Virus record (IMG/VR): IMGVR_UViG_3300031553_000001
Location: 13,755 to 77,754 of that record
Strand: one strand, 5' to 3'
Source: a virus
DNA: 64,000 nucleotides
Part shown: positions 19,946-50,576 of the stretch, piece by piece
Layout: each line of letters opens with the position of its first letter
Numbering within the stretch: position 1 is the stretch's first letter
Notes under the pieces: generated by a model
What the model was told of the DNA's origin: nothing
Databases searched by the model: none
What the model saw: the letters and a program-made list of their open reading frames with translations, nothing else
Program-made: the position numbers and the translations under genes

Positions 19946-22030
19946 ATATTTTGTCTCTTAACATACGTTCATATTGCCGTTCCAAGTCATCCTCTACATT
20001 GCCACGAAAGTTGGCATACAAAACCATCACCAACACGATGCTGCCAAGGATTAGAGGCACGGCGCACACTACTGCCAGAGATGATGGGCCATCGCCACCA
20101 GCTGATTTGGCACTCAGATCTTGGGTGACCTGCGAACCAACTCCAGCAATCAAGCCGACAACGATGGCCGCCAAGAAGAAAGCTATCAACAACAGTTTCA
20201 ATTCAGAAGTCATCTCAAAACTCCTTTCTGCACCCTATTTACCCTGCTTGTCCATCAATTTTGGTTTTGGCGTCAACCAAACTTCGGCCGTTGCCGTCAT
20301 CCCCGCTTTCCGAGTGACTACCATCACCGCTGTCCAACGTGCCTGTCGTGTTTGCGCTTCCACCTGTCGTGTCCTCTTGACCGCTCGACTTGTTGCATTT
20401 CTGCGTACCGCATTTACCGTCGAGGCACTCGCATCTAACTCCGTACGCACCTCCTGCCAGATGACACTACCCACTCGAAGTAGCCAAAAGAGAACCACCG
20501 CAAGTAGTACACAACCCGCAAAAGTCACCCAACGTTTGATGCTTTTCAGGTCTCGATCTCGATCTTCAGTCACGTCAAACCTCCTCTACACTAACGTCTA
20601 GTAACCCAGCTCCAAACACTTCTTAGTTGCCACCTCTCGATACACGCCATCAACCATGTCAGCGCACTCTTCATACGTACCTATGTCCTGTTCAACGCAA
20701 ACATAGATGGCCGCTGCCGCGTCTGGCCCCTGGTAGAGAACCTCCATGGCCGCTCGCACACAAGCATCCATGTTCTTGTCCGTTGCCGAACCAGAACCAA
20801 CGCCAAAATCCAAATCGGGTGTAGGCCCACTAGTTGGCAAGACCCAAGGAGTAGCGGTGCGGTTGACTTTATGGACTGATGTCAGGAGTACCCTCTTCGT
20901 CGCTGTCTTTTCAGCATAACTGTCTCCACCATCCCGCCCAACTGACGCACAGCACACTAATAGAAGAAACAATGCTAATGAAACTGCCCCGATCAGAACC
21001 TTCATCTTGCTACTCACAACAAACCTCCTAGGTAGTTGAGCCCACTAAGCACACTGCAACCGCCCAGCAGCACGAAAAGGATGAGTGAGATAAGCATCAC
21101 GGTGCCCATGAACGACACCCACCCACGAATACAATGCACCTGTTTGTACAGGTCCTTCAGTTGCTCCAACTGCCCGTGTATACTCGCAACCTCGTCCAGC
21201 AGAAGCTGTTCCGTTGTCAATAGTGGCTTCTCTTCATCTGCCTCGGCCGCCTTCATTACATACTCTGCCATCTTGTTACTCATTGCCATACCTCCTATAG
21301 AAACGAACAACACACTAATAGAAGAAACAATGCTAATGAAACTGCCCCGATCAGAACCTTCGTCTTGCTTTTCACCTCAAAACCCTCCGTCCCCATAGCT
21401 CCAGAATTCCAAAGGGAATAGCTGCCAACAAACCTACCACTATCCCTAGCCAAGGAAAATCATCAAACCCGCTGATTAGCCCACCAAGTAGGGCAAGCAC
21501 TATACTGATTATCAAAGCCAAACTGACTGCCCCACTACTCATTACATCCCTTCCCGCACGTCTGACCGTGCCTTGATAATGCAAACCACGCCCACGCCGA
21601 TGATTATCAATATCACTACTGGCAGAAAGATAACCTCAAACATCTCAACCTCCAAAATTCGTGGATGCGTAAATCCAAATCCAAATAGCCGCTGCGATTA
21701 TCAAGGCCAAAATACCTAGAAATGAGTTATCCCGTCGTGGCTCAAGTGGCGGCAAAAACGGATACATATCACCCAAATCGCGCCTTCCCATATTGTCAAC
21801 CTCCAATTACGCTCAACAGCCTTGGATTATCAATACAAGCATCAACACTAATCCTATTCCAAACAGTACAGGCAATCCTATCTCACAAAAGGCTCTTTTC
21901 ATAATCAACCTCCATATACACCTAGACATAAGAACACCAGTATGAAAACCGCTACCGCACAACCTACCGCCAAAGCCAAACCGCCAGAACTATCCACATC
22001 CAACCCACGCAGATTGTCAATCCAGTTCAT
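19932..22030 (-). CDS. Cluster of about ten small membrane or lipoprotein ORFs (19932..20213, 20235..20573, 20598..21017, 21014..21313, 21295..21375, 21372..21542, 21542..21643, 21645..21791, 21813..21902, 21905..22030)
   Basis: Each has one or two hydrophobic helices and most have a GGAGG-type RBS; several are below the track cutoff and were translated by hand. Confidence 0.65.
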
Positions 22031-22032
22031 AT

Positions 22033-22266
22033 TCAATTCCACCCACCCACATGGCTTACGTCAGTGAACGCATCAGCCAAGCGCTTCTTCTGCCCAACAT
22101 CACGCTGCAAAAATTTGCGGTTGTTGGCTTCACATTCTGCACACAATCGTATCCAAACCGTCTTGATTTTCTCATGTCCAGAATCCATATCAATTACATT
22201 GACCTGGATTGATAGTGCATATTGCGCTTCTTCTCCACACACATCACATTTCATTGTTGACCTCAC
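22033..22266 (-). CDS. Small Zn-finger protein (CDVC...CAEC); likely start ATG at 22254
   Basis: Two CxxC pairs. Confidence 0.55.
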   Translation of the reverse strand: MRSTMKCDVCGEEAQYALSIQVNVIDMDSGHEKIKTVWIRLCAECEANNRKFLQRDVGQKKRLADAFTDVSHVGGWN

Positions 22267-22507
22267 AAAGCCGTGCCCTGCCGTGCCATTACTCTACGTC
22301 ATCAGGCTACGCTATTACTGTGCACATCCCCACGTTGCTCCACCATTGCATTACCTGTCGCAACCGTATGCCGCTTTGCCATCACATAACCCTATACCAC
22401 TGTGCCATTGCTCTGCGTCGCAAATCGTGACCCTGCCATCGTTGTGCGTCACGCTGTCCAACTATACTTCACCACTGCTATACATCACCTGGCGTGACAA
22501 AGCCATC
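22260..22507 (-). repeat. Non-coding 5-nt-periodic array of eight units, each RRTRGY plus (NNN-GY) x 4-6; candidate guide RNA array
   Basis: Unit lengths 31,36,31,26,36,31,26,31; 32 of 40 pentamers end in GY; starts at the stop codon of the Cas7-like gene. Confidence 0.85.
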
Positions 22508-23129
22508 ACTCTTCTTTTGTCATCTCATATATGATCCTCCCAAAACCGCTGCCTCGATTCTGGAGCAGCCCTTGGTAATATCCATAATCAAATAGATTTC
22601 TCAAAACCTCCTCCGTGATTGGCCCAGGATATACACTGATTCCACATTCAAACCAGGAGTTTTCTGGAATTGACTCACTTCTAGCCAACACCATACGTTG
22701 ACCAAACGCTGTTTGCGCAGGAAGTGGACGTTCATATATGTCAATTGTCCCACCGTCGGGTAAATGTAGCGGAATCCACCTTGGTGACACAAAGACCAAC
22801 TTGGATACCTTGCTTCTCAAAGCCCGTAGTGGCTTGCCAGTTGGCATTTTCAATTGTCCATTCAATACCACACCAGCAGCCTTGAGGAAGCCCTTGACGT
22901 GATAGTCAAACAGACCTATTTCAAACTCTCCACCATCTGATAGGTAATGACGATGGAACACCGTGGTGGCCTGCTCCAGAGCATCGGGGAGACTCTCTAT
23001 CTCATCCTCTGGAATGGCAAAGTTGTGCTTCTTGGCTATGTATTGGGTAGCCACATCTCTGGTTGACTGTGATCCCAAGCATGGCGTTATGAACGTCACC
23101 TTTGCCTTATAGGTAGCTATGTGTACCAT
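22506..23129 (-). CDS. Stand-alone Cas7/RAMP-superfamily-like protein
   Basis: N-terminal strand KVTFITPCLG, helix YHVKGFLKAA, VFVSP, thumb ERPL-x-AQT-x2-GQR-x2-LARSE, C-terminal G-rich loop DYG-x3-GLLQNRGSGFGR; no other cas gene in the window. Confidence 0.72.
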   Translation of the reverse strand: MVHIATYKAKVTFITPCLGSQSTRDVATQYIAKKHNFAIPEDEIESLPDALEQATTVFHRHYLSDGGEFEIGLFDYHVKGFLKAAGVVLNGQLKMPTGKPLRALRSKVSKLVFVSPRWIPLHLPDGGTIDIYERPLPAQTAFGQRMVLARSESIPENSWFECGISVYPGPITEEVLRNLFDYGYYQGLLQNRGSGFGRIIYEMTKEE

Positions 23130-23157
23130 CTATATCCTCCATTAGATTGTCAATCCG

Positions 23158-23174
23158 CTACTATAGTAAACTTG
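23158..23174 (-). promoter_or_regulatory. Promoter-like motif copy 2, upstream of the Cas7-like gene
   Basis: CAAGTTTACTATAGTAG, then ATTGACAAT, then GGAGG and ATG. Confidence 0.7.
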
Positions 23175-23697
23175 CTGCCAAAGCAATATGGCCACGCCAC
23201 TCTTTTTCCAGGTTTGGCCTACGCAAGACATAGGCTGGATGCCAAGTGGCCGCGTATATTGTCCCATCAAACTCATATTCCCACAGCGTTCCAGCCCACT
23301 TAGCTTCATTTCCCAAAACTGCCACAAAAGCCGTCTTACCCAACAGCAATACCATTTCTGGATCCAATCGCTCGATGTCCCTGCGCAGGAATGTGGCACA
23401 TAGCCTAGCCGCTTTGGCAGGCAACTTATTGTCAATTGGATGACACCTCACCACATTGATGTAGGCCGCCATCTCATCTATTCCCAAATCACCTAACGCA
23501 CTGACTAGCAGTTCGCCAGATCTGCCTATCGGCTTGAAGGTTGGACCAACCTTCTCCACATCTCTTCAAGGTGCTTCTTGGACCACTAGGATGCGCGGAT
23601 TGGGATTGCCTATCACGCCCTGGAATGGATGCGCTTTGTCCCGAAACAGGCCACACTCTTGACATATTGGATTGTCAATGCCTGGTTGATCGGCCAC
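23161..23697 (-). pseudogene. Family-4-like uracil-DNA glycosylase interrupted by one in-frame TGA (23568-23566)
   Basis: GTG start with GGAG RBS gives CQECGL...ILVVQEAP*RD...GRSGELL...NVVRCHP...LLLGKTA...TWHPAYVLR. Confidence 0.8.
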
Positions 23698-23698
23698 T

Positions 23699-24586
23699 TT
23701 ATGCTCCAATATTCCAAAATACCACTGGCTGCTCAAGATGCTCTATATTGTCAATCAACCACAGCCACGCCTTGGCATCATAATACTCATTACATGGAAA
23801 CGGAATATCCGCATTGTCTACTCCGTCTTTGTAGGCATAATTTTCATCTATGAATCGCAAATTGTCGCCTGGAATCACACCAGCCATCTGAGTGATATAT
23901 TTTCTGGCTGCATCTTTGCTTCTGCTATAACCCATATGAGCTAGGATAACCGCTGATTGTTCCCAAGCATTATACAAGCCGCGCACTACACCAGCGCATA
24001 TAGTACCTGAGCTAATAGACACTACCCAAGTACCCTTAGCGTATATATCATCCGGTGTATACGTTCGTGCTTCCATTGCAGTAGCTACTACTGTCTCTTG
24101 CAAACATAACCCATTAGGCATCATCACCCCACGGTCATCAGTCATTTGAGCCAAGACCTTTTTGGCTTGATGATACAAGACACAACTACGTCCTGCCTGC
24201 AATGGAACGATTTGAGCACCTAGATTAGCTGCAACCTGCTGATGCATGCGTATTTTATGGTCAGGAAACCAACCATCGCTAGGCGTGCCTGGCTCCAAAT
24301 ACTCATCCTTGTATACCGGATAGAATACGATGCACTTCAGACCTAGATGATGACACAGATATGCTACTCCTCTGCCAGCTTTGGAGTGATACGTATCCAA
24401 TACACCCATAGTTGTATCATGATTGAATTTTGTCAAATATGATACAACTCCACGAATCTTGGAGAAGTGTGGGCCACTTGGATCAGGACAACACAAATCC
24501 TCGCGCTTAACCCAAACAGGCCAAGTGTCGTCAATATCATACTGTTCCCAAGGCGTATTGTCAATCAACAGACTGTTAGTGTCCAT
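23699..24586 (-). CDS. PLP-dependent enzyme (fold type II); probable hypermodification decarboxylase
   Basis: VWVKRED...FSKIRG, SISSGTICAG, PFPCNEYYDAKAW; clustered with the rSAM and amino acid:DNA transferase genes. Confidence 0.75.
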   Translation of the reverse strand: MDTNSLLIDNTPWEQYDIDDTWPVWVKREDLCCPDPSGPHFSKIRGVVSYLTKFNHDTTMGVLDTYHSKAGRGVAYLCHHLGLKCIVFYPVYKDEYLEPGTPSDGWFPDHKIRMHQQVAANLGAQIVPLQAGRSCVLYHQAKKVLAQMTDDRGVMMPNGLCLQETVVATAMEARTYTPDDIYAKGTWVVSISSGTICAGVVRGLYNAWEQSAVILAHMGYSRSKDAARKYITQMAGVIPGDNLRFIDENYAYKDGVDNADIPFPCNEYYDAKAWLWLIDNIEHLEQPVVFWNIGA

Positions 24587-24758: not shown

Positions 24759-24931
24759 GATGGGATGGCACATCCTTTACAGGTATGAATTAAGACGTTA
24801 CTACCTTACGGCACGTCACCAACTTAGACTCAACGTCACTGATATGCCAATACTCTCTACCATCCCTGTCGGGACTGGACGGGTATTGGATTACAGTCCT
24901 TGGCCTGTCACAGTCTCAGCGCCTTCCCATC
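24759..24931 (-). ncRNA. Candidate structured small RNA containing a second 5-nt-periodic tract
   Basis: Starts at promoter motif copy 3; the ends pair (GATGGGAAGGC / GCCATCCCATC); 7 of 8 consecutive pentamers at 24801-24840 carry NGT. Confidence 0.55.
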
Positions 24932-24955: not shown

Positions 24956-25029
24956 TGGACTCAGCTGGAATCGAACCAACAACCTGCCGCTTATAAGACG
25001 GCTACTCTATACCATTGAGCTATGAGTCC
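24956..25029 (-). tRNA. trnI: tRNA-Ile, anticodon TAT, CCA not encoded
   Basis: Acceptor GGACTCA/TGAGTCC, D arm GCTC/GAGT, anticodon arm GCCGT-CTTATAA-GCGGC, T arm GTTGG-TTCGATT-CCAGC. Confidence 0.92.
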
Positions 25030-25237
25030 TAACCACATCCACCATCCATAGAATTCCTCGCCAGTACGTTTATCACTAGTATACCAAGATATACCCCAAC
25101 ACCCATTGCAACGACAACGATGGTTCCCATACATACATAACTCAAGGTAATATCTGGAAGCATATTGTCAATCTCCCTCAAATTGTCGTAGTAAGGCTTT
25201 ATACCACTTCAATTGTACACCACAATCCACACAATGA

Positions 25238-27745
25238 TTACTCATACAATAAATCCTCCAAAGTGGGCCATCTATAATGCTCTGCAAACGTTGCATCACT
25301 AGGATACCAATAATATTGATCCTTCATCTTATGCGGCGGAAGATTTGACCCTTCCAATTCCCAGTCTTCATCACATCCACTCAATTCAATAGTTCTCAAA
25401 TCTTTGTACTGTAGTGCTGATGCTTCCAACAACTTATCATTCTTGCAAGCATGAGTACCATACTCAGCACAGTACAGACATCCAGATTCAAAACAACCAG
25501 GCAAAGATTCAAATGGGGCACCCTTCTCTGGCCTATAGAACATGGGAACAGTCTGACCATGACAGCCACCTTTGGATGTGGTATACCACGGCGCAAGGCT
25601 GGAACCGCCCCCACCATCAGCATAGTATTCATAGCACAACGACATTGTCAATCCAACATCACGTGTCCTGTCCAACAAGGCATTAAGCCATTCGATGCGC
25701 ACATCTTGTTGGATCGTATACACGCCGCCTATGACATGATTGAACAGATTGTCAAAGGTGGCCACATGTGGCAGCTTTCTGGAATGCATCCGATCTACGA
25801 TTATTTGTCGGTTGTTAGCTACTTGCTCCACAAATTTGAATATGATATGATGCCCACCATATTCAGACACCAAATCACATAGCAATAGCAAATCATCTAG
25901 TGTGGTTATACCAGCTATTATGGGATTGCATTGGACGCTAATATAAATACCGCTATCAACCATCTCAGCCATATTGTCAAACATGGCTTGTAGTGGTGGC
26001 GCACCTGGGCTGAACCTACTATAGTGGTCTGGGTTTGATGTGTTGATCGACCACTGCATATAGCTGTAAGGATTTTTCAGAAGCGCATCCTGTGCCCACT
26101 CTGGGGCCAACTGTCTGGACAGGTAGAAGAATGGCAAACCAGCATCCAAGAATACTTGAGTGATCTGTTGCGTGATGTGATATGTACTCTCTAATGGATG
26201 GAATGGCTCGCTGAAAGATGTAATGTATCCAGCTCCAGAAACCATCAGATTGTCAATGCGCTTGCGAAAAGCGGCAGGATAGTCAGGATTGACCGTAGGT
26301 AGGCCAGTAGCTCTATAGCCCCGCGTGCCATTATTGATATAGCAATTATGAACCAGTAAGCCATTAGCATAGAAATTCTCAACAGTGGTTTGGATGTCCC
26401 ATACATCTAATGGCTCATCCACACGCTCCATACTCGTCAATTCAGTATACCTAGCGCTTGCAGCTTCTGCATGTTCCATAACTCCAATATGATCCCATCC
26501 ACGGCAAAGGATGTCTGGAATCTCTGGAACCGCGCCTGATCCTCTTCTGGAAAATACCCCTTCACTTCGACAATTTTCAACAGACTGCCTTGTGAATCGT
26601 ACAGATGGAAATCTGGAAGATATACTTCCTTTGAATCCTCCAGAGAATACACCGCCTCCTCGAATATCCAAATGATGTTGTTCGCATCTAGCCATTGCGC
26701 AGTTAGCCACTCCCATTCTGAGCGAAAAGTTATCTTGCAGCCAGATTTCATTGTGTATGGCTTGCGCTTGCTGGTTTTGTAGCCCATCCCGCCGCTGGCT
26801 ATTCTCAAGGCCATATCCTCCCGCCATTTCAATGACCTGGTACATCCTAGAGAATTCTTGTTGCTCCTCAATGTTAATCCTCTTTTGCGCCTTAACTCCT
26901 TGGATTGTGGCTTGCCCTTCAATGGGGATGGTCTGCCTTTGCTTTTGCGTCCCTGCTCCGCACGATGTAGCTGTAGACATGCATCGCATAGCTTCCGATT
27001 GCGTTGGCCTGTAGGTTTGCCACATCGTTCGCACATCTTGGCTGCGTTCATCACATCCGTTTGTGCGCGCCTGGTCTTGTTGGATTTGGCTACGCTTCTC
27101 ACCTTGCGGATATAACGGCACTTGGCACAGTACTTTTTCCATTGCGTTGGATTCTCTATGTTGGCACCGCAATCCAAGCAGTGTTTGTACATGATCTCCC
27201 TCCCTCAATTGATCCACCCTAGCCCATCCAGCATTATCTGTCAGAATTGGGTGATCTCCAGTCACTTTCAAGACATGCCCATCCGCAGTATTCAGTATGT
27301 AGTAGCTCTCCACCTGACGCTTGGATACCGCCAGCACCTCTGAGTCACATAATCCAACCTCAACACGACCATACACCACATCACCCACTAGCAGATTATC
27401 AATGCGTACATCACCATCAGGCGTGGCCACTAGGGCGTCCCCACTAACACAGTGCGCACAATTTATGGGGCAAAACCCACCGTATGGGGTGGTGAGGGTT
27501 GCCTCTGTGGAACAAGGTCTTGGCCTTTTTCTCTTTGGCTCGTGTTTGGATTTATACCATCCTCGTGGATTTGGAGCAGATTTATTGATGATATGCTTCA
27601 TTGGATCGGTATAGACATTGAATGGTTTCGTCTTGCCACCTCTGACCATTGCCAATGGGATTGTCAAATAATGGCCGCGTTCGTCTGTTCCCTGCCCCGT
27701 TGGTTCATGCAACTTATGAAATTCCTGCCGATCTTCGTCTACCAT
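25238..27745 (-). CDS. Radical SAM enzyme (hypermodification-associated) containing an intein; mature protein about 466 aa
   Basis: PYGGFCPINCAH-[intein]-CYIN rebuilds CxxxCxxC; SFSEPF, SINT and NPIIAG motifs. Confidence 0.85.
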   Translation of the reverse strand: MVDEDRQEFHKLHEPTGQGTDERGHYLTIPLAMVRGGKTKPFNVYTDPMKHIINKSAPNPRGWYKSKHEPKRKRPRPCSTEATLTTPYGGFCPINCAHCVSGDALVATPDGDVRIDNLLVGDVVYGRVEVGLCDSEVLAVSKRQVESYYILNTADGHVLKVTGDHPILTDNAGWARVDQLREGDHVQTLLGLRCQHRESNAMEKVLCQVPLYPQGEKRSQIQQDQARTNGCDERSQDVRTMWQTYRPTQSEAMRCMSTATSCGAGTQKQRQTIPIEGQATIQGVKAQKRINIEEQQEFSRMYQVIEMAGGYGLENSQRRDGLQNQQAQAIHNEIWLQDNFSLRMGVANCAMARCEQHHLDIRGGGVFSGGFKGSISSRFPSVRFTRQSVENCRSEGVFSRRGSGAVPEIPDILCRGWDHIGVMEHAEAASARYTELTSMERVDEPLDVWDIQTTVENFYANGLLVHNCYINNGTRGYRATGLPTVNPDYPAAFRKRIDNLMVSGAGYITSFSEPFHPLESTYHITQQITQVFLDAGLPFFYLSRQLAPEWAQDALLKNPYSYMQWSINTSNPDHYSRFSPGAPPLQAMFDNMAEMVDSGIYISVQCNPIIAGITTLDDLLLLCDLVSEYGGHHIIFKFVEQVANNRQIIVDRMHSRKLPHVATFDNLFNHVIGGVYTIQQDVRIEWLNALLDRTRDVGLTMSLCYEYYADGGGGSSLAPWYTTSKGGCHGQTVPMFYRPEKGAPFESLPGCFESGCLYCAEYGTHACKNDKLLEASALQYKDLRTIELSGCDEDWELEGSNLPPHKMKDQYYWYPSDATFAEHYRWPTLEDLLYE
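26345..27451 (-). mobile_element. Intein (369 aa) inserted before the third Cys of the radical SAM motif
   Basis: Block A CVSGDALV, block B LKVTGDHPILT, blocks F/G VWDIQTTVENFYANGLLVHN followed by Cys. Confidence 0.93.
26437..27192 (-). CDS. Putative homing endonuclease nested out of frame inside the intein
   Basis: Own RBS (GAGGGAGG); four CxxC pairs; NUMOD3-like basic segment; PD-(D/E)XK core FRSEWE...YLPDF...IVEVKGY. Confidence 0.85.
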   Translation of the reverse strand: MYKHCLDCGANIENPTQWKKYCAKCRYIRKVRSVAKSNKTRRAQTDVMNAAKMCERCGKPTGQRNRKLCDACLQLHRAEQGRKSKGRPSPLKGKPQSKELRRKRGLTLRSNKNSLGCTRSLKWREDMALRIASGGMGYKTSKRKPYTMKSGCKITFRSEWEWLTAQWLDANNIIWIFEEAVYSLEDSKEVYLPDFHLYDSQGSLLKIVEVKGYFPEEDQARFQRFQTSFAVDGIILELWNMQKLQALGILN

Positions 27746-28082: not shown

Positions 28083-28880
28083 TCACTCATCAGGATACAC
28101 CGGCATGAACTTTATCAATTCCTCAGCCAAGTCACCCCAGCCACTCAGACCTTTGGTAACGTGAATGGTGTCGTTGCCCATCGGGTAAAATCCGTAACAA
28201 TGGGCTTTATATTTACACAAAATCGTTTCCACTTCTTGGATGTTCACTGGTCTGTCATCCCAGGGAGGAGCAAGTTTATTGTCAAACTCACCCACCATCC
28301 TGTCACAAGTGACATGTAACTGATCCATCGTTATGGGATAATGCTTGTCGCCATAATCGATCCAGGCTGCGCCTTGGACAGGATCTTTATAGATTCCTAT
28401 CTCACTGTCCGTAAAATCCACTGGATAGCTGAGAACCCGCTCCGCCATATCAGCTATCTTCCACCCCATCCAAGGCCCAAAACCTTTGTATTTCACCACA
28501 TTGTCAAAAACCTCCTTAAATCTGTAATGAGCGCACATATCATCTACTATCCGCTCTGGCTCACCAGCATCTTCCAATCCATTTACCAAATCAAGCGCAG
28601 ATTTGCCATAGAAATACCTGCGTTCCATTCCTCTGGGCCATTTCTCCGCTAAACCCAATCGCATAGATTTATAGAAATGCGATGATTCAGCTATGCGCGC
28701 AGCCACACCACAAGAATAATAACACCAATAAGCCAACAAAAATCTTTCAAACATTTTTCCATGTAACACGCCAGCCATCTCAGCATCCACCAGCATTACG
28801 TATACTGGATCCAGATCGCCTGTGTCAAGAAGATCATTACCAAAATCCTGATAGGACATATCTATTTTTGGCTGTCTCAT
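28083..28880 (-). CDS. Amino acid:DNA transferase (aGPT-Pplase/ADDT, HhH-glycosylase fold)
   Basis: DLDPVY, LLAYWCYY, WPRGMERR, FGPWMGWKIADM-x-ERV, APP...R-x2-NIQEVETILCKYK. Confidence 0.8.
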   Translation of the reverse strand: MRQPKIDMSYQDFGNDLLDTGDLDPVYVMLVDAEMAGVLHGKMFERFLLAYWCYYSCGVAARIAESSHFYKSMRLGLAEKWPRGMERRYFYGKSALDLVNGLEDAGEPERIVDDMCAHYRFKEVFDNVVKYKGFGPWMGWKIADMAERVLSYPVDFTDSEIGIYKDPVQGAAWIDYGDKHYPITMDQLHVTCDRMVGEFDNKLAPPWDDRPVNIQEVETILCKYKAHCYGFYPMGNDTIHVTKGLSGWGDLAEELIKFMPVYPDE

Positions 28881-30040
28881 GATTCCTCACAAGCATGTAT
28901 GATTCTAGCATCAGCAATTTCAAAATACTCTTCTTCAATCTCAATACCAATGAAATCTCGATCAGTATGAATACAAGCTATACCTGTTGTGCCACTACCC
29001 ATAAATGGATCGAGAACGGTGCCGCCGGTGGGCGTCTTGGTTAGCTTGCAAAGGTATTCCATCAAGGCAATAGGTTTGACTGTCGGATGATAGTTCTGAT
29101 GGGCACTTGGATGATACTCACTCCATCCTACCTTCCCTGTATCAGGATCAGCTCTGCGGATTAATTTACTCGTATTCTTCTCAAATCCTTGTCTCTTTTC
29201 CATCCCATCCAGCCCCTCGTTGCGTTCATTTTCGTTGGCCTTGGGACAGTAGAAGTATCGAGCCTTGGCATCGCCAACCTGCTCATCCAATAGCGCGCCA
29301 GCCTCCTCATCGAGGATCAGGTTGGCGGGCCAGCGCCCCAATCCGGCATCCACAAATTCAATATGTTTTCCCACCTCATTTGCCCCACCACTACCGGAGA
29401 AACTAAATGAACCGTGTAGCTTCTGCAGCTTGTCTTTCGTTGGTATCCTCCCTCCGTCGATCCACAGCCCAGCCACGCCCCACTTGAGCGCATTATGTGC
29501 AAACGTGCCGTCACGCGGCTTCATTGCCAGGATTATAGGCTCCCAGGCAGGCTTTAGGCCAGTGCCCCAGCCATCCCAGAGTTTGGCGGCTTCGGTGGTG
29601 GGATGATACTTGTAACCATAATCAGAACGAAACTTCTTCTCCCTAGGCTCATAATCCCCACCTGCATAATTTGCGCCTTGCGATTGTATGCCCAATTTCC
29701 CCGCCGCCTTGTCGATGGCCTTGCTGATATTATGAGATTTCGGAAAGCCCGAACCATACAACCACATCAGACAATCACGGATCACCCAGCCCGCATCTTC
29801 TATCGCACACATTAGTCGATGGTGGGTGCGCGTGCCCCCAAATGCTAGCAGCATCGCCCCTGGCTTGGCTACTCTCAATGCAGCTTTCCAAAATACTACT
29901 CCAGGCACGCCGTGATCCCACTCCCTGCCCATAAATTTGAGGCCATACGGTGGATCCGTGATGACCGTGTCCGCACTATTCTCATCCAACATAGCCATCA
30001 CGTCCAAACAATCACCACAATACAGCGTTGCTTGAGTCAT
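28877..30040 (-). CDS. DNA N6-adenine/N4-cytosine methyltransferase (beta class)
   Basis: TDPPY, HPTVKP, LDPFMGSGTTG. Confidence 0.93.
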   Translation of the reverse strand: MTQATLYCGDCLDVMAMLDENSADTVITDPPYGLKFMGREWDHGVPGVVFWKAALRVAKPGAMLLAFGGTRTHHRLMCAIEDAGWVIRDCLMWLYGSGFPKSHNISKAIDKAAGKLGIQSQGANYAGGDYEPREKKFRSDYGYKYHPTTEAAKLWDGWGTGLKPAWEPIILAMKPRDGTFAHNALKWGVAGLWIDGGRIPTKDKLQKLHGSFSFSGSGGANEVGKHIEFVDAGLGRWPANLILDEEAGALLDEQVGDAKARYFYCPKANENERNEGLDGMEKRQGFEKNTSKLIRRADPDTGKVGWSEYHPSAHQNYHPTVKPIALMEYLCKLTKTPTGGTVLDPFMGSGTTGIACIHTDRDFIGIEIEEEYFEIADARIIHACEES

Positions 30041-30888: not shown

Positions 30889-31874
30889 AGCAGGTCTTCC
30901 CCTTCCATCAGATCGTCAATCAAATTGCATATCTCATCATACTCATCATCGAAGATGGCAGGCCAACCATTCTTACGGAACCGCTGCCCAGCAAACTCAT
31001 ACCAACCACCAGAGATTGTCAATGCCTTGGCTAATCTCAAATACTCTAACGCAGCCTCAGCTTCATCCACACCATGACCAAAATAAATTGGTAGGGACAC
31101 GGTACGGAATGGTGGCGCAATTTTGTTCTTGGTGATAGTGGCCTTGGCATAGATACCTATCACACGCTTGTCACCGCGTTTTATCTTCTGGCCCACTTTT
31201 AACATAACTCTAATACTACTGTGAAACCCTACCGCCTTACCGCCAAACGTGGTGACCTTGCTTCCAAACATCACGCCTATGTTCTCCTTGGCCTGGTTGA
31301 TTAACAACACTGCTACATTTTCCTTGGATATAAGCCGTGTCAGCCGTCTCAACCCCTGACTGATAACCCTGGCGTGTGTCAAATATCCCACCTCGCCAGT
31401 CTCTTTGTCCATCTCAGCAGTACTGGACGTGGCCGCCACGCTATCCCACACAATTAGCAAGTCATAATCCGCTTTGGACTTTATGGCCACCTCCATAGTC
31501 TTGAAAACCTGCTCTACTGTATCTGGAGCAGTATACACCAGATTGTCAATATCCACCCCAACAGCTTCCATGATAGGCAGTGACACGGCTGTCTCTGTAT
31601 CAATATACAACGCCACACCACCCTCATCCTGGATAGTGGCGCAGGCTTGGGCTGCTATGAGCGATTTTCCAGTAGATGTATCACCATAGATTTCCACCAC
31701 TCTGCCCAATGGCAAACCACCACCCATGGCCGCATCCAGAAGGTAACATCCCGTAGACAAGAATCCAGTCACCACGCACGGTGATGAGTCATCTGACAGC
31801 CGTGATACCGATGTCGATGCTTGCTTGGCTATATTGTCAATCAGCGTCTGTATAGTCCCTTTGTCGTTTGGCAT
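30885..31874 (-). CDS. recA: RecA/UvsX recombinase
   Basis: GGLPLGRVVEIYGDTSTGKS, YIDTE, WDSVAA, INQ, GGKAVGFHSS, KNKIAPPF. Confidence 0.95.
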   Translation of the reverse strand: MPNDKGTIQTLIDNIAKQASTSVSRLSDDSSPCVVTGFLSTGCYLLDAAMGGGLPLGRVVEIYGDTSTGKSLIAAQACATIQDEGGVALYIDTETAVSLPIMEAVGVDIDNLVYTAPDTVEQVFKTMEVAIKSKADYDLLIVWDSVAATSSTAEMDKETGEVGYLTHARVISQGLRRLTRLISKENVAVLLINQAKENIGVMFGSKVTTFGGKAVGFHSSIRVMLKVGQKIKRGDKRVIGIYAKATITKNKIAPPFRTVSLPIYFGHGVDEAEAALEYLRLAKALTISGGWYEFAGQRFRKNGWPAIFDDEYDEICNLIDDLMEGEDLL

Positions 31875-42556: not shown

Positions 42557-43285
42557 CTACTCCGTTGGCCCGTGGATCAGCGCGTCGCGTGCTGCCTTAG
42601 ACTTGTACTCTGGCTTCCACTTCGTGATTCCCTTGCTCTTCTGATATGCCAGGGTCAAGCGCATGTTGTTTACCAATTCATTGTCATGTTCCTCCCAAGT
42701 CACCTTGGCATCCTTGGCCTCCGCCACCTTCTCCTCGAAGGTCAGTGTCGGCCAGTACTCATGAAATTCTATATATTCCTTGGTCTGAGCTACAGCCTCC
42801 ATCTCTGCAGTACTCATCAAACGTTGCGGCTTTGCTGGAACCACTACAACTTCTTCTGACACGCTATCCGCATCAGCATAGGCCACCACATATGCGTGAC
42901 CTTTCTTGCGGATTGTCAATGCCCGACCTGCTAGAAGCGCCTGGTCAACCAGCCCAAACAAGTCCGTGAACTCCAAGACTGAAGGCAACTCCACCGCACC
43001 AGGTTTTTCCTCAGTGACTTCCTCAGTCATAGCAGGCTTCCTTGTTCGAACACGTTTGACAGGCAACGCATCTGGAGCCACTTTCTTGCGCCGCTGCCGT
43101 CTGACAGGCTTTTCCTCAACAACTTCTGGTTCCTCAACAACTTCTGGTTCCTCAACAACTTCTGGTTCCTCAATATCAATGCTTTCCTGCTCAACCTCAG
43201 GAACCGTGGTGGGCTTACGCCGCGTCACTTTACGCACTCTTCGCTTCGTCATTTGATTCTCCTTGTTTTGTTGTGGCATCCTCAC
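42557..43285 (-). CDS. Hypothetical protein with alternating basic/acidic low-complexity N-terminus
   Basis: EEPEVV x3 encoded by an 18-bp tandem repeat near 43113-43171. Confidence 0.6.
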   Translation of the reverse strand: MRMPQQNKENQMTKRRVRKVTRRKPTTVPEVEQESIDIEEPEVVEEPEVVEEPEVVEEKPVRRQRRKKVAPDALPVKRVRTRKPAMTEEVTEEKPGAVELPSVLEFTDLFGLVDQALLAGRALTIRKKGHAYVVAYADADSVSEEVVVVPAKPQRLMSTAEMEAVAQTKEYIEFHEYWPTLTFEEKVAEAKDAKVTWEEHDNELVNNMRLTLAYQKSKGITKWKPEYKSKAARDALIHGPTE

Positions 43286-50393: not shown

Positions 50394-50412
50394 GTGTTAC
50401 CCTTGATATTTG

Positions 50413-50473
50413 TGGGATAGGCAGGCGGCCAAGGGAAACCACTTTTCGGGGTATACAGCCCTAGCCTATCCCA
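50413..50473 (-). ncRNA. C4-antisense-like structured RNA, copy A
   Basis: UGGGAUAGGC-UAGGG...CCCGAAAAGUGG-UUUCCCUUGG-CCGCCU-GCCUAUCCCA three-way junction. Confidence 0.6.
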
Positions 50474-50517
50474 TTACACTATGAGTGAAGAATATGATGC
50501 CTCCTCCTGGATATATT

Positions 50518-50576
50518 ATGGGACAGGCAGGTGGCAGGAGGAACCACTTTTCGGGTGCTACCCTAGCCTGCCCCAT
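50518..50576 (-). ncRNA. C4-antisense-like structured RNA, copy B
   Basis: AUGGGGCAGGC-UAGGGUAGCACCCGAAAAGUGG-UUCCUCCUG-CCACCU-GCCUGUCCCAU; same scaffold with a different loop. Confidence 0.6.

What the first reader, a model, noticed from the sequence alone, without database searches (positions are those of the whole stretch)
22260..23174. Stand-alone Cas7/RAMP-like gene followed by a non-coding array with strict 5-nt periodicity: candidate minimal RNA-guided system
Seen: the 248 nt after the gene parse on the minus strand into eight units: GATGGC TTTGT CACGC CAGGT GATGT ATAGC / AGTGGT GAAGT ATAGT TGGAC AGCGT GACGC ACAAC / GATGGC AGGGT CACGA TTTGC GACGC AGAGC / AATGGC ACAGT GGTAT AGGGT TATGT / GATGGC AAAGC GGCAT ACGGT TGCGA CAGGT AATGC / AATGGT GGAGC AACGT GGGGA TGTGC ACAGT / AATAGC GTAGC CTGAT GACGT AGAGT / AATGGC ACGGC AGGGC ACGGC TTTGT GAGGT. 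Every unit is 6+5n long. 32 of 40 pentamers end in GY (about 5 expected by chance) and the exceptions are all AY or GA. The first three positions vary freely, and no long minus-strand ORF crosses it. The locus has its own promoter motif and there is no cas1/2/5/6/8 or CRISPR repeat in the window. Known: Cas7 RAMPs polymerise on guide RNA with a fixed nucleotide step (6 nt in Cascade). Inference: each subunit grips a GY, the variable bases form a discontinuous targeting code, and the hexamer marks unit boundaries, giving guides with constant and variable bases interleaved instead of repeat-spacer. It could silence rival phages or host defence genes, or act as an anti-CRISPR decoy. I recall recent reports of viral RAMP proteins with GGY/NN-periodic RNAs, so novelty needs a literature check; this hexamer-punctuated NNN-GY form may be a distinct variant.
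Basis: partly seen in the sequence, partly recalled or inferred. Interest (0 to 1): 0.95.

Follow-up and report, generated by a model that had tools for sequence, protein, structure and literature searches.

The report
Phage VIPR guide-RNA system (known kind)
A salt-marsh phage carries a small Cas7-like protein followed by a 248-base array of five-letter repeats; this matches VIPR, a CRISPR-like RNA-guided DNA-silencing system first described in 2026 preprints, so it is real but not a new kind of system.

Summary
Window 22507..22260 (minus strand) parses into 8 units, each one hexamer (RATGGY) plus 4-6 pentamers (NNNGY). G fills position 4 in 35 of 40 pentamers and a pyrimidine fills position 5 in 37 of 40. 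No other stretch of the 77.7-kb genome, and no shuffle, comes close.

The 207-aa gene directly upstream folds as a single-RRM Cas7/Csm3-like RAMP. By profile-profile comparison it is homologous to the characterised Vipr protein of Escherichia phage SUSP1 (probability 95.8%).

The protein family is large, with about 2,200 clusters at 50% identity. In 33 of 80 relatives examined, the same kind of array sits directly 3' of the gene on the same strand: NNNGY pentamers with an AANGGY hexamer every 5-7 repeats.

This is therefore a VIPR system (Vipr protein plus vrRNA array), published as bioRxiv preprints in 2026. Those preprints already list YNNNG repeats and "staggered" arrays offset by 1 nt.

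What remains open is how this tail-less, short-unit, three-variable-base form is processed and which target code it uses. My target searches gave nothing above chance. The window's copy also carries unusual substitutions in the RNA-binding loop (W191N).

This scan has noted VIPR loci in more than 400 other genomes. Verdict: a new member of a known kind, of modest interest.

The parts
22506..23129 (-). vipr gene: 207-aa stand-alone single-RRM RAMP (Cas7-like). It has a thumb beta-hairpin at about residues 130-154 and a C-terminal glycine-rich loop at 187-198.
   Evidence: No Pfam or PHROG family. AF2 model has pLDDT 87. The top Foldseek PDB hits are type VII Cas7 and Csm3, E 1e-8. VIA-align gives Z 12.5, rmsd 3.3, 159 aligned residues to Csm3. 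hhalign against the SUSP1 Vipr family gives probability 95.8%, E 8e-9, 189 columns.
22260..22507 (-). vrRNA array of 48 repeats in 8 units: U1 22507-22477, U2 22476-22441, U3 22440-22410, U4 22409-22384, U5 22383-22348, U6 22347-22317, U7 22316-22291, U8 22290-22260. Each unit is an RATGGY hexamer plus 4-6 NNNGY pentamers. There is no conserved tail between units.
   Evidence: Exact parse and counts. Chain score 21 against at most 6 elsewhere. Equivalent arrays lie next to the gene in relatives. The RNA folds no better than shuffles, z +0.32. The array is present with only a few SNPs in contigs from four other salt-marsh samples.
23130..23160 (-). Short intergenic leader of vipr. It holds a GGAGG ribosome-binding site and one copy (23144-23155) of the phage-wide motif GATTGACAATCT.
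   Evidence: Sequence. The motif has 40 matches at up to 2 mismatches against 6.9 expected, about 30 of them on the minus strand. Its role as a promoter is not shown.
22033..22254 (-). 73-aa CxxC...CxxC zinc-ribbon-like ORF starting 6 nt after the last repeat, whose GAGG serves as its ribosome-binding site. It is a weak candidate accessory (vap-like) gene, probably just the next gene in the operon.
   Evidence: Only sub-threshold Pfam hits to zinc-ribbon families. A homologue sits in the same position only in the closest relative, L001. No gene neighbour is conserved across the clade. A search for its relatives found nothing useful.

Best explanation
The locus is a VIPR (Viral Interference Programmable Repeat) system on a complete 77.7-kb phage genome with direct terminal repeats, from salt-marsh metagenomes.

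The 207-aa gene encodes a Vipr protein, a lone Cas7-like RAMP. The 248 nt that follow it are a vrRNA array, transcribed with the gene as its 3' extension.

By homology with the SUSP1 system, one Vipr protomer binds each 5-nt repeat and the protomers form a helical filament on the RNA. The thumb and the glycine-rich loop sequester the constant G-Y. The variable bases are presented to base-pair, with periodic gaps, with double-stranded DNA of a competing phage, satellite or other target, whose transcription is then silenced.

Shown here: the fold, the homology to Vipr, the statistics of the array, and the family-wide linkage between gene and array.

Inferred: transcription and processing of the array, filament formation, DNA targeting, and the biological target.

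This clade differs from the characterised type II in three ways. Only G-Y (not GGY) is constant. The guides have no structured 3' tail. The array is cut into units of 5-7 repeats by an extra G (AANGGY), which most likely marks where one short guide ends and the next begins.
For: 1. Fold. The top structural matches are all Cas7-family backbone subunits: type VII Cas7 and Csm3 at Foldseek E 1e-8 to 1e-6, and Z 12.5, 12.3 and 12.2 to Csm3 and Cmr subunits.

2. Homology to the experimentally studied protein. I located SUSP1 vipr at KT454805.2 28474-29061(-). Its residues H17, K33, R138, D177, W178 and R179 match the numbering in the structure paper, and GGY-NN arrays flank it. Profile-profile comparison of our family against the SUSP1 family gives probability 91.6%, rising to 95.8% and E 8e-9 over 189 columns with a deeper alignment. 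The G-loop motif is shared: GLGQWRNxGxGRF here against GVGDWRPRFGRF in SUSP1.

3. Linkage. Of 80 relatives' loci, 37 have a GY period-5 chain above every shuffle, and 33 of these lie directly 3' of the gene on the same strand. Arrays reach about 1 kb. The same AANGGY punctuation every 5-7 repeats persists down to 36% protein identity.

4. Strand. In the window only the gene's strand carries GY, and the array begins in the stop codon. Arrays in L034 and L020 end in GC-rich hairpins.

5. Literature. The VIPR papers describe this architecture and note YNNNG, NNNGG and NNNNG repeats and staggered arrays offset by 1 nt. A second group reports non-canonical VIPR pentamers.

6. Context. The genome is a complete viral genome with no Cas1 and no CRISPR repeats, and no guide matches the phage's own genome above chance. 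The VIPR paper also reports no self-targeting.
Against: No RNA data exist for this phage, so transcription, processing and protein binding are untested.

The window's protein departs from the family at 4 of 29 highly conserved columns, against a median of 1. One of these is W191N, at the position equivalent to SUSP1 W178, which stacks on the second G. The others are R137P in the thumb, F199I and G157N.

The array has more off-consensus pentamers (8 of 40) than relatives' arrays, where G at position 4 is mostly 92-100% (lowest 80%, L013). The copy could therefore be weakened.

I found no target under any pairing rule.

No vap accessory gene is conserved beside the gene.

Units carry only 12-18 variable bases, which is short for a specific guide.

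Direct sequence similarity to SUSP1 Vipr is weak (BLASTP E 0.35; HMM against PDB 36pp E 0.96). The homology rests on profile comparison and fold.
Confidence: 0.88

Rival explanations
1. It is a decaying or inactive VIPR remnant. The gene and array descend from a working system, but this phage's copy has lost RNA gripping or guide function and persists as a passenger.
For: Substitutions W191N, R137P, F199I and G157N fall at positions conserved in at least 88% of 76 family members. W191 aligns with SUSP1 W178, which stacks on G2 (structure paper). 20% of pentamers are off-consensus against 0-8% in most relatives and 20% in L013. No targets were found.
Against: The ORF is intact and full length. 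The same allele and array occur with few SNPs in contigs from four other salt-marsh samples. Three family members deviate at 5 conserved columns, so 4 is not an outlier. G is still kept at position 4 in 35 of 40 pentamers and Y at position 5 in 37 of 40, far above drift.
Confidence: 0.1
2. The tract works at the DNA level, for example as a binding array, an origin or packaging signal, or a structural DNA element. It is not an RNA guide, and the neighbouring RAMP-like gene is coincidental or binds the DNA.
For: In GC-type arrays of relatives the GC motif reads the same on both strands. Several relatives' contigs end at the array. No RNA evidence is available.
Against: In the window the motif is G-Y (52% T), so it exists on one strand only, the coding strand of the gene. 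The AANGGY hexamer is also strand-specific. The array always follows the gene in the same orientation, starting at its stop codon. The protein is homologous to an RNA-binding RAMP that has been shown to co-purify with such RNAs. Contig ends at arrays are what assemblers produce at repeats.
Confidence: 0.02
3. It is a categorically new minimal RNA-guided system distinct from VIPR: a different protein family with a different logic.
For: Only G-Y is constant rather than GGY. Guides have no tail and no vap gene is conserved. The protein family has no Pfam or PHROG model and shares only about 16% identity with SUSP1 Vipr.
Against: The full-length profile match to the Vipr family, the shared G-loop motif, the same 5-nt register and the same gene-array layout all argue against it. 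The VIPR authors already include YNNNG and NNNNG repeats and staggered arrays in their seven types (the staggered arrays), and a second preprint reports non-canonical pentamers.
Confidence: 0.03

Closest known systems
VIPR type II of Escherichia phage SUSP1 (Vipr + vap1 + four vrRNAs; bioRxiv 10.64898/2026.04.26.720920, .720927, 10.64898/2026.10.15.759431; PDB 36pp)
   Same: Both are phage-encoded. Both have a lone RAMP of about 200 aa with thumb and G-loop. Both place tandem 5-nt repeats with constant G/Y positions and variable bases next to the gene on the same strand. Neither has cas genes or a CRISPR array. The G-loop motif G-x-G-[DQ]-W-R-x-x-x-G-R-F is shared.
   Different: Protein identity is only about 16%. 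The constant part here is G-Y (NNNGY), not GGY (NNGGY). SUSP1 D177, which reads G1, is an invariant Gln in this family, and the His17 equivalent is not conserved. SUSP1 vrRNAs are separate transcripts of about 100 nt with 9-16 repeats and a pseudoknotted 3' tail. Here 5-7-repeat units abut without tails and are separated only by one extra G. No vap1 homologue is present.
[quoted passage not shown]
   Same: The YNNNG consensus is this array's repeat read in another frame. A 1-nt offset between consecutive guides is what the 6+5n unit lengths produce.
   Different: I could not see the figures or data tables, so I cannot say which of types I-VII this clade belongs to, or whether the AANGGY punctuation is what fig. 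S18 shows. The preprint states that the ribozyme-interspersed and single-guide forms were confirmed by small-RNA sequencing. It does not say so for staggered arrays.
Cas7 backbone subunits of class 1 CRISPR effectors (Csm3/Cmr4, type VII Cas7)
   Same: Same fold (Z 11-12.5). The thumb hairpin and C-terminal glycine-rich loop are shared, and Cas7 subunits also polymerise on a guide RNA with a fixed nucleotide step.
   Different: The step is 5 nt rather than 6. There is no CRISPR array, no other cas genes and no Cas1 in the genome. The element is viral and consists of one protein.

Membership tests
VIPR system | Vipr protein: small single-RRM RAMP with thumb and glycine-rich loop | tested here: met
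   AF2 model pLDDT 87. It shows a long beta-hairpin at 130-154 and a G-loop at 187-198 before the last strand. Best structural matches are Cas7/Csm3: Foldseek E 1e-8 and Z 12.5.
VIPR system | Sequence homology to a characterised Vipr (SUSP1) | tested here: met
   hhalign of the family profile against the SUSP1-family profile gives probability 95.8%, E 8e-9, 189 columns. With the smaller alignment it gives 91.6%. Pairwise BLASTP is not significant.
VIPR system | Tandem pentanucleotide repeats with constant GGY (or related) and hypervariable bases, adjacent to vipr | tested here: met
   48 repeats follow the gene directly. The constant part is G-Y, the YNNNG variant that the authors list. The linkage recurs in 33 of 80 relatives.
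VIPR system | Canonical GGY/NN consensus (type II) | tested here: not met
GG occurs only in the unit-starting hexamers. This excludes type II, not VIPR as a whole.
VIPR system | Conserved structured 3' tail capping each vrRNA (type II) | tested here: not met
   Units abut with no inter-unit sequence. The array RNA folds no better than shuffles, z +0.32.
VIPR system | Accessory vap gene beside vipr | tested here: inconclusive
   No neighbour cluster is shared among diverse relatives. A 73-aa zinc-ribbon ORF follows the array here and in L001 only. The preprint names six vap genes for seven types, so a vap-less type may exist; that is my inference.
VIPR system | Viral or proviral context without cas genes or a CRISPR array | tested here: met
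   Complete virus record with direct terminal repeats; no Cas1; no CRISPR-like repeats; no CRISPR-repeat families in Rfam.
VIPR system | vrRNAs expressed and co-purifying with Vipr | not testable with these tools
   Only DNA runs (salt-marsh metagenomes) are listed for this stretch.
VIPR system | Gapped (1-nt-skip) recognition of natural DNA targets | tested here: inconclusive
   No pairing rule beat shuffled guides on 1.1 Mb of relatives plus the phage's own genome. Exact-pattern scans of viral contigs gave hits at the same rate as a shuffled control.
CRISPR-Cas class 1 (type III/VII Cas7) | CRISPR repeat-spacer array and further cas genes (Cas1/2, Cas5, Cas10 or Cas14) | tested here: not met
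   No Cas1 in the genome. No repeat-spacer array. The only RAMP is this gene.

The most novel reading that the evidence does not exclude
This large, mostly metagenomic Vipr clade may run a different version of the VIPR code.
- The protein grips only G-Y, because the pocket for the first G has changed (Asp to invariant Gln).
- Three bases per repeat are then free to pair, which would give a 3+1 or contiguous-triplet target rule instead of 2+1.
- Guides are only 5-7 repeats long, about one turn of the published filament.
- They are released from a tail-less array at an extra G without ribozymes or structured handles.

Such short guides might have to act cooperatively on clustered sites. None of this has been tested experimentally in print for staggered arrays.
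Probability: 0.3. Interest if true: 0.6.

Novelty: new member of a known kind. Interest (0 to 1): 0.3.

Why it matters
It adds one clean, complete-genome example of VIPR from an environmental (salt-marsh) phage.

It also shows that the YNNNG, hexamer-punctuated, tail-less array form belongs to a very large Vipr clade: about 2,200 clusters at 50% identity and more than 570 viral contigs.

That form is the least characterised in the published work. Its processing signal and its pairing rule are not established. If it reads three bases per repeat, it would widen the design space of these very small programmable DNA binders.

As a discovery of a new class, it has been overtaken by the 2026 preprints.

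Tried and rejected
**Family and RNA libraries**
- Pfam and PHROGs gave no family for the 207-aa protein.
- Rfam gave nothing in the tract, either at E up to 1 locally or at gathering threshold window-wide. This also rules out hammerhead-interspersed arrays here.
- megablast of 6 kb against GenBank phages found no match. tblastn found four unannotated gut phage records only.

**Pairing-rule inference on local data**
- I tested 221 guide units from 31 arrays against 1.1 Mb of relatives' loci plus this phage, under nine rules. The rules used NNN or NN as the paired bases, with the per-repeat skip varied from 0 to 3 nt.
- None beat shuffled guides. The only excess was the period-5 'rule', which merely re-finds other arrays.
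- Windows of 15 repeats did no better. The best hits were low-complexity or borderline, for example 23 of 30 just upstream of vipr in L003, which I do not count.
- Stop-codon depletion among 1,660 variable triplets was not decisive.
- No match to the phage's own genome exceeded chance under any rule.

**Exact-pattern scans of viral contigs**
- Two 21-base patterns from an L064 guide (period 4 and contiguous) and an 18-base pattern from L034 gave 0 hits.
- Window unit 2 at period 4 gave 2 hits, which are one sequence family. Unit 5 gave 3 hits, which are two families. None extended into the flanking repeats.
- A shuffled control gave 1 hit, so all of these are at chance level.
- The metagenome and genome scans were not spent, because 18 specified bases would give tens of random hits there.

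**Other checks**
- No RNA holder is listed for this stretch, so expression could not be examined.
- A search for relatives of the downstream zinc-ribbon ORF found only a 10-residue match.
It scores 5.5-6, the same as the best shuffles, so it is not distinguishable from chance.
- The sigma-70 scan found no promoter upstream of vipr.
- TRAP-like and other period-5 RNA binders were considered and dropped once the RAMP fold and Vipr homology were clear.

Full report
**The observation**

It has eight units of 31, 36, 31, 26, 36, 31, 26 and 31 nt. Each unit is a hexamer (RATGGY) followed by four to six pentamers.

In the 40 pentamers, position 4 is G in 35 and position 5 is a pyrimidine in 37. Positions 1-3 vary. 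The hexamer is a pentamer-like word with one extra base, so the whole tract is 48 repeats with a 1-nt register shift at each unit boundary.

I scored chains of G-Y spaced 5 nt apart, with 6-nt steps allowed at a penalty. The tract reaches 21. Nothing else in the window exceeds 5, nothing else in the 77.7-kb genome exceeds 6, and shuffled sequence reaches 4-5. The signal exists only on the minus strand, the coding strand of the upstream gene. The tract begins inside that gene's stop codon.

**The protein**

ORF 22506..23129 (-) encodes 207 aa with no Pfam or PHROG family. It has 34 relatives in a word-indexed search. A profile search of 1.84 billion representatives found 2,187 clusters at 50% identity, 913 of them at E below 1e-30. 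More than 570 viral contigs encode a relative.

An AlphaFold model built on the family alignment is confident (pLDDT 87, pTM 0.82). It shows one RRM-type core, a long beta-hairpin at about 130-154 (the thumb), and a glycine-rich loop before the last strand.

Foldseek against the PDB returns only Cas7-family subunits at the top: type VII Cas7, Csm3 and Cas7-11, with E from 1e-8 to 1e-5. An independent all-against-all structural search gives Z 12.5 (rmsd 3.3, 159 residues) to Csm3, followed by Cmr and type IV and type I Cas7 proteins.

**The gene and the array travel together**

In 80 relatives' loci from viral contigs, 37 have a GY period-5 chain above every shuffle. Of these, 33 start directly after the gene on the same strand and three lie just upstream. 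Some arrays are about 1 kb long (L034, L041, L064).

Arrays read directly show NNNGC or NNNGY pentamers. A hexamer of consensus AANGGY recurs every 5-7 repeats, with a mode of 6. This punctuation persists down to 36-39% protein identity, including in gut-phage relatives whose pentamers are more degenerate. The arrays in L034 and L020 end in GC-rich hairpins.

Four contigs stop within 100 nt or so of the gene's end, as expected if assemblers break at such repeats. No other gene is conserved next to the family. A small zinc-ribbon ORF follows the array only here and in the closest relative.

**What it is**

These papers describe VIPR systems: a lone phage-encoded RAMP (Vipr) plus vrRNAs made of YNNGG pentamers. 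One protomer binds each repeat and the protomers form a helical filament. The thumb and G-loop sequester GGY. The NN bases pair with double-stranded DNA, skipping every third target base. The complex silences transcription of competing phages and satellites.

The methods state that some types use NNNGG, YNNNG or NNNNG repeats. The results mention 'staggered arrays with overlapping vrRNAs', in which consecutive guides are offset by 1 nt. A further preprint (10.64898/2026.10.21.760802) independently recovers period-5 arrays next to Vipr-like folds, including non-canonical pentamers.

**Membership test**

I tested membership rather than assuming it. In the SUSP1 genome (KT454805.2), the ORF at 28474-29061 (-) has H17, K33, R138, D177, W178 and R179 exactly as numbered in the structure paper. 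GGY-NN tracts flank it.

Pairwise BLASTP to the window protein is not significant. An HMM of our family only grazes the PDB chain 'SUSP1 Vipr protein' (36pp, E 0.96). Profile-profile comparison of the two families, however, aligns them end to end. Probability is 91.6% with 28 sequences and 95.8%, E 8e-9 over 189 columns, with 76 sequences.

The G-loop is visibly the same motif: GLGQWRNxGxGRF in this family, GVGDWRPRFGRF in SUSP1. SUSP1 W178 (stacks on G2) and R179 (holds the pyrimidine) are conserved in our family as W191 and R192. D177 (reads G1) is an invariant Gln, and the His17 equivalent is not conserved. That fits an RNA in which G2 and Y are kept and G1 is free. This last link is my inference.

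**Context**

The genome is a complete virus record of 77,754 bp with direct terminal repeats. It has no Cas1 and no CRISPR-like repeats. It occurs in salt-marsh metagenomes. Contigs from four further samples carry the gene and the array with only a few SNPs and no gain or loss of units. No RNA run is listed, so expression could not be examined. The array RNA is no more structured than shuffles (z +0.32), as expected for a protein-coated guide scaffold rather than a folded RNA.

**Peculiarities of this copy**

The window's protein deviates at 4 of 29 columns conserved in at least 88% of 76 relatives, against a median of 1 and a maximum of 5. The deviations are W191N, R137P (thumb), F199I and G157N. 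Its array has 8 of 40 off-consensus pentamers, more than most relatives. The allele is the same in the other samples that cover it, so it is not an assembly error. It may be a weakened or retuned copy; I give an inactive remnant about 10%.

**Attempts to go beyond the literature**

The pairing rule and the targets of this YNNNG, short-unit form are not established in print as far as I could read. I tested nine rules with 221 units against 1.1 Mb of relatives plus this phage, then 15-repeat windows, then the phage's own genome. None beat shuffled guides.

Six exact-pattern scans of viral contigs gave either nothing or hits at the same rate as a shuffled control, and no hit extended into flanking repeats. 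Triplet statistics did not show clear stop-codon avoidance. So the code and the target remain open.

The units carry only 12-18 variable bases and are about as long as one turn of the published filament (five to six protomers). This may mean short guides that act together. That is speculation.

**Verdict**

This is a VIPR system, a class published in 2026. This scan has already noted VIPR-like loci in more than 400 other genomes. The locus is a new member of a known kind. The residual interest lies in the uncharacterised staggered, tail-less array form and in the unusual G-loop of this copy.

Noticed in passing
window 13157-57061, minus strand (e.g. 23144-23155, 22011-22022, 25162-25173, 31540-31551): The motif GATTGACAATCT, or a variant with 1-2 mismatches, occurs 40 times against 6.9 expected. 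About 30 copies are on the minus strand across the early/middle region. One copy sits 3 nt before the vipr ribosome-binding site and at least one lies inside an ORF (reading W-I-D-N-L). It may be a phage-specific promoter or regulator site. It is not a standard sigma-70 promoter at the vipr position.
   Followed up: partly
window 24803-24839 (-), in the roughly 175-nt non-coding stretch after the tRNA: A short run of GT-ending pentamers, noted earlier as a possible second guide RNA. Its chain score of 5.5-6 equals the best shuffles, so it cannot be told from chance. SUSP1-type systems do carry a solo upstream vrRNA, so it is worth checking by RNA sequencing.
   Followed up: partly
window 24956-25029 (-): A tRNA-Ile gene with anticodon TAT, found by both ARAGORN and Rfam (68 bits).
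   Followed up: no
window 50401-50471 and 50506-50573 (-): Two tandem matches to the Rfam family int-alpA RNA (RF02996; 44.9 and 43.1 bits against a gathering score of 35.8).
   Followed up: no
window 25238-27745 (-): An 835-aa ORF reads like a radical-SAM enzyme interrupted by an intein (CPINCAHC...VHNCY). A PALP-family PLP enzyme (23699-24586) and a short UDG-superfamily protein (23161-23559) lie between it and vipr. This fits the DNA-hypermodification module noted by another reader. I did not test it.
   Followed up: no
window 43112-43183 (+): An 18-nt unit TTCCTCAACAACTTCTGG repeated in tandem about four times (three overlapping 36-nt copies at 18-nt spacing), probably an in-frame coding repeat.
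   Followed up: no
L002, L009, L017, L040 (viral contigs of relatives): These contigs end within about 100 nt after the vipr homologue, or inside it, where the array would begin. Period-5 arrays apparently break short-read assemblies, so surveys may undercount them.
   Followed up: partly
window 22254-22266 (-): The last repeat of the array (GAGGT) doubles as the Shine-Dalgarno sequence of the next ORF, whose ATG is at 22254. The array is therefore probably transcribed through into the downstream genes.
   Followed up: no
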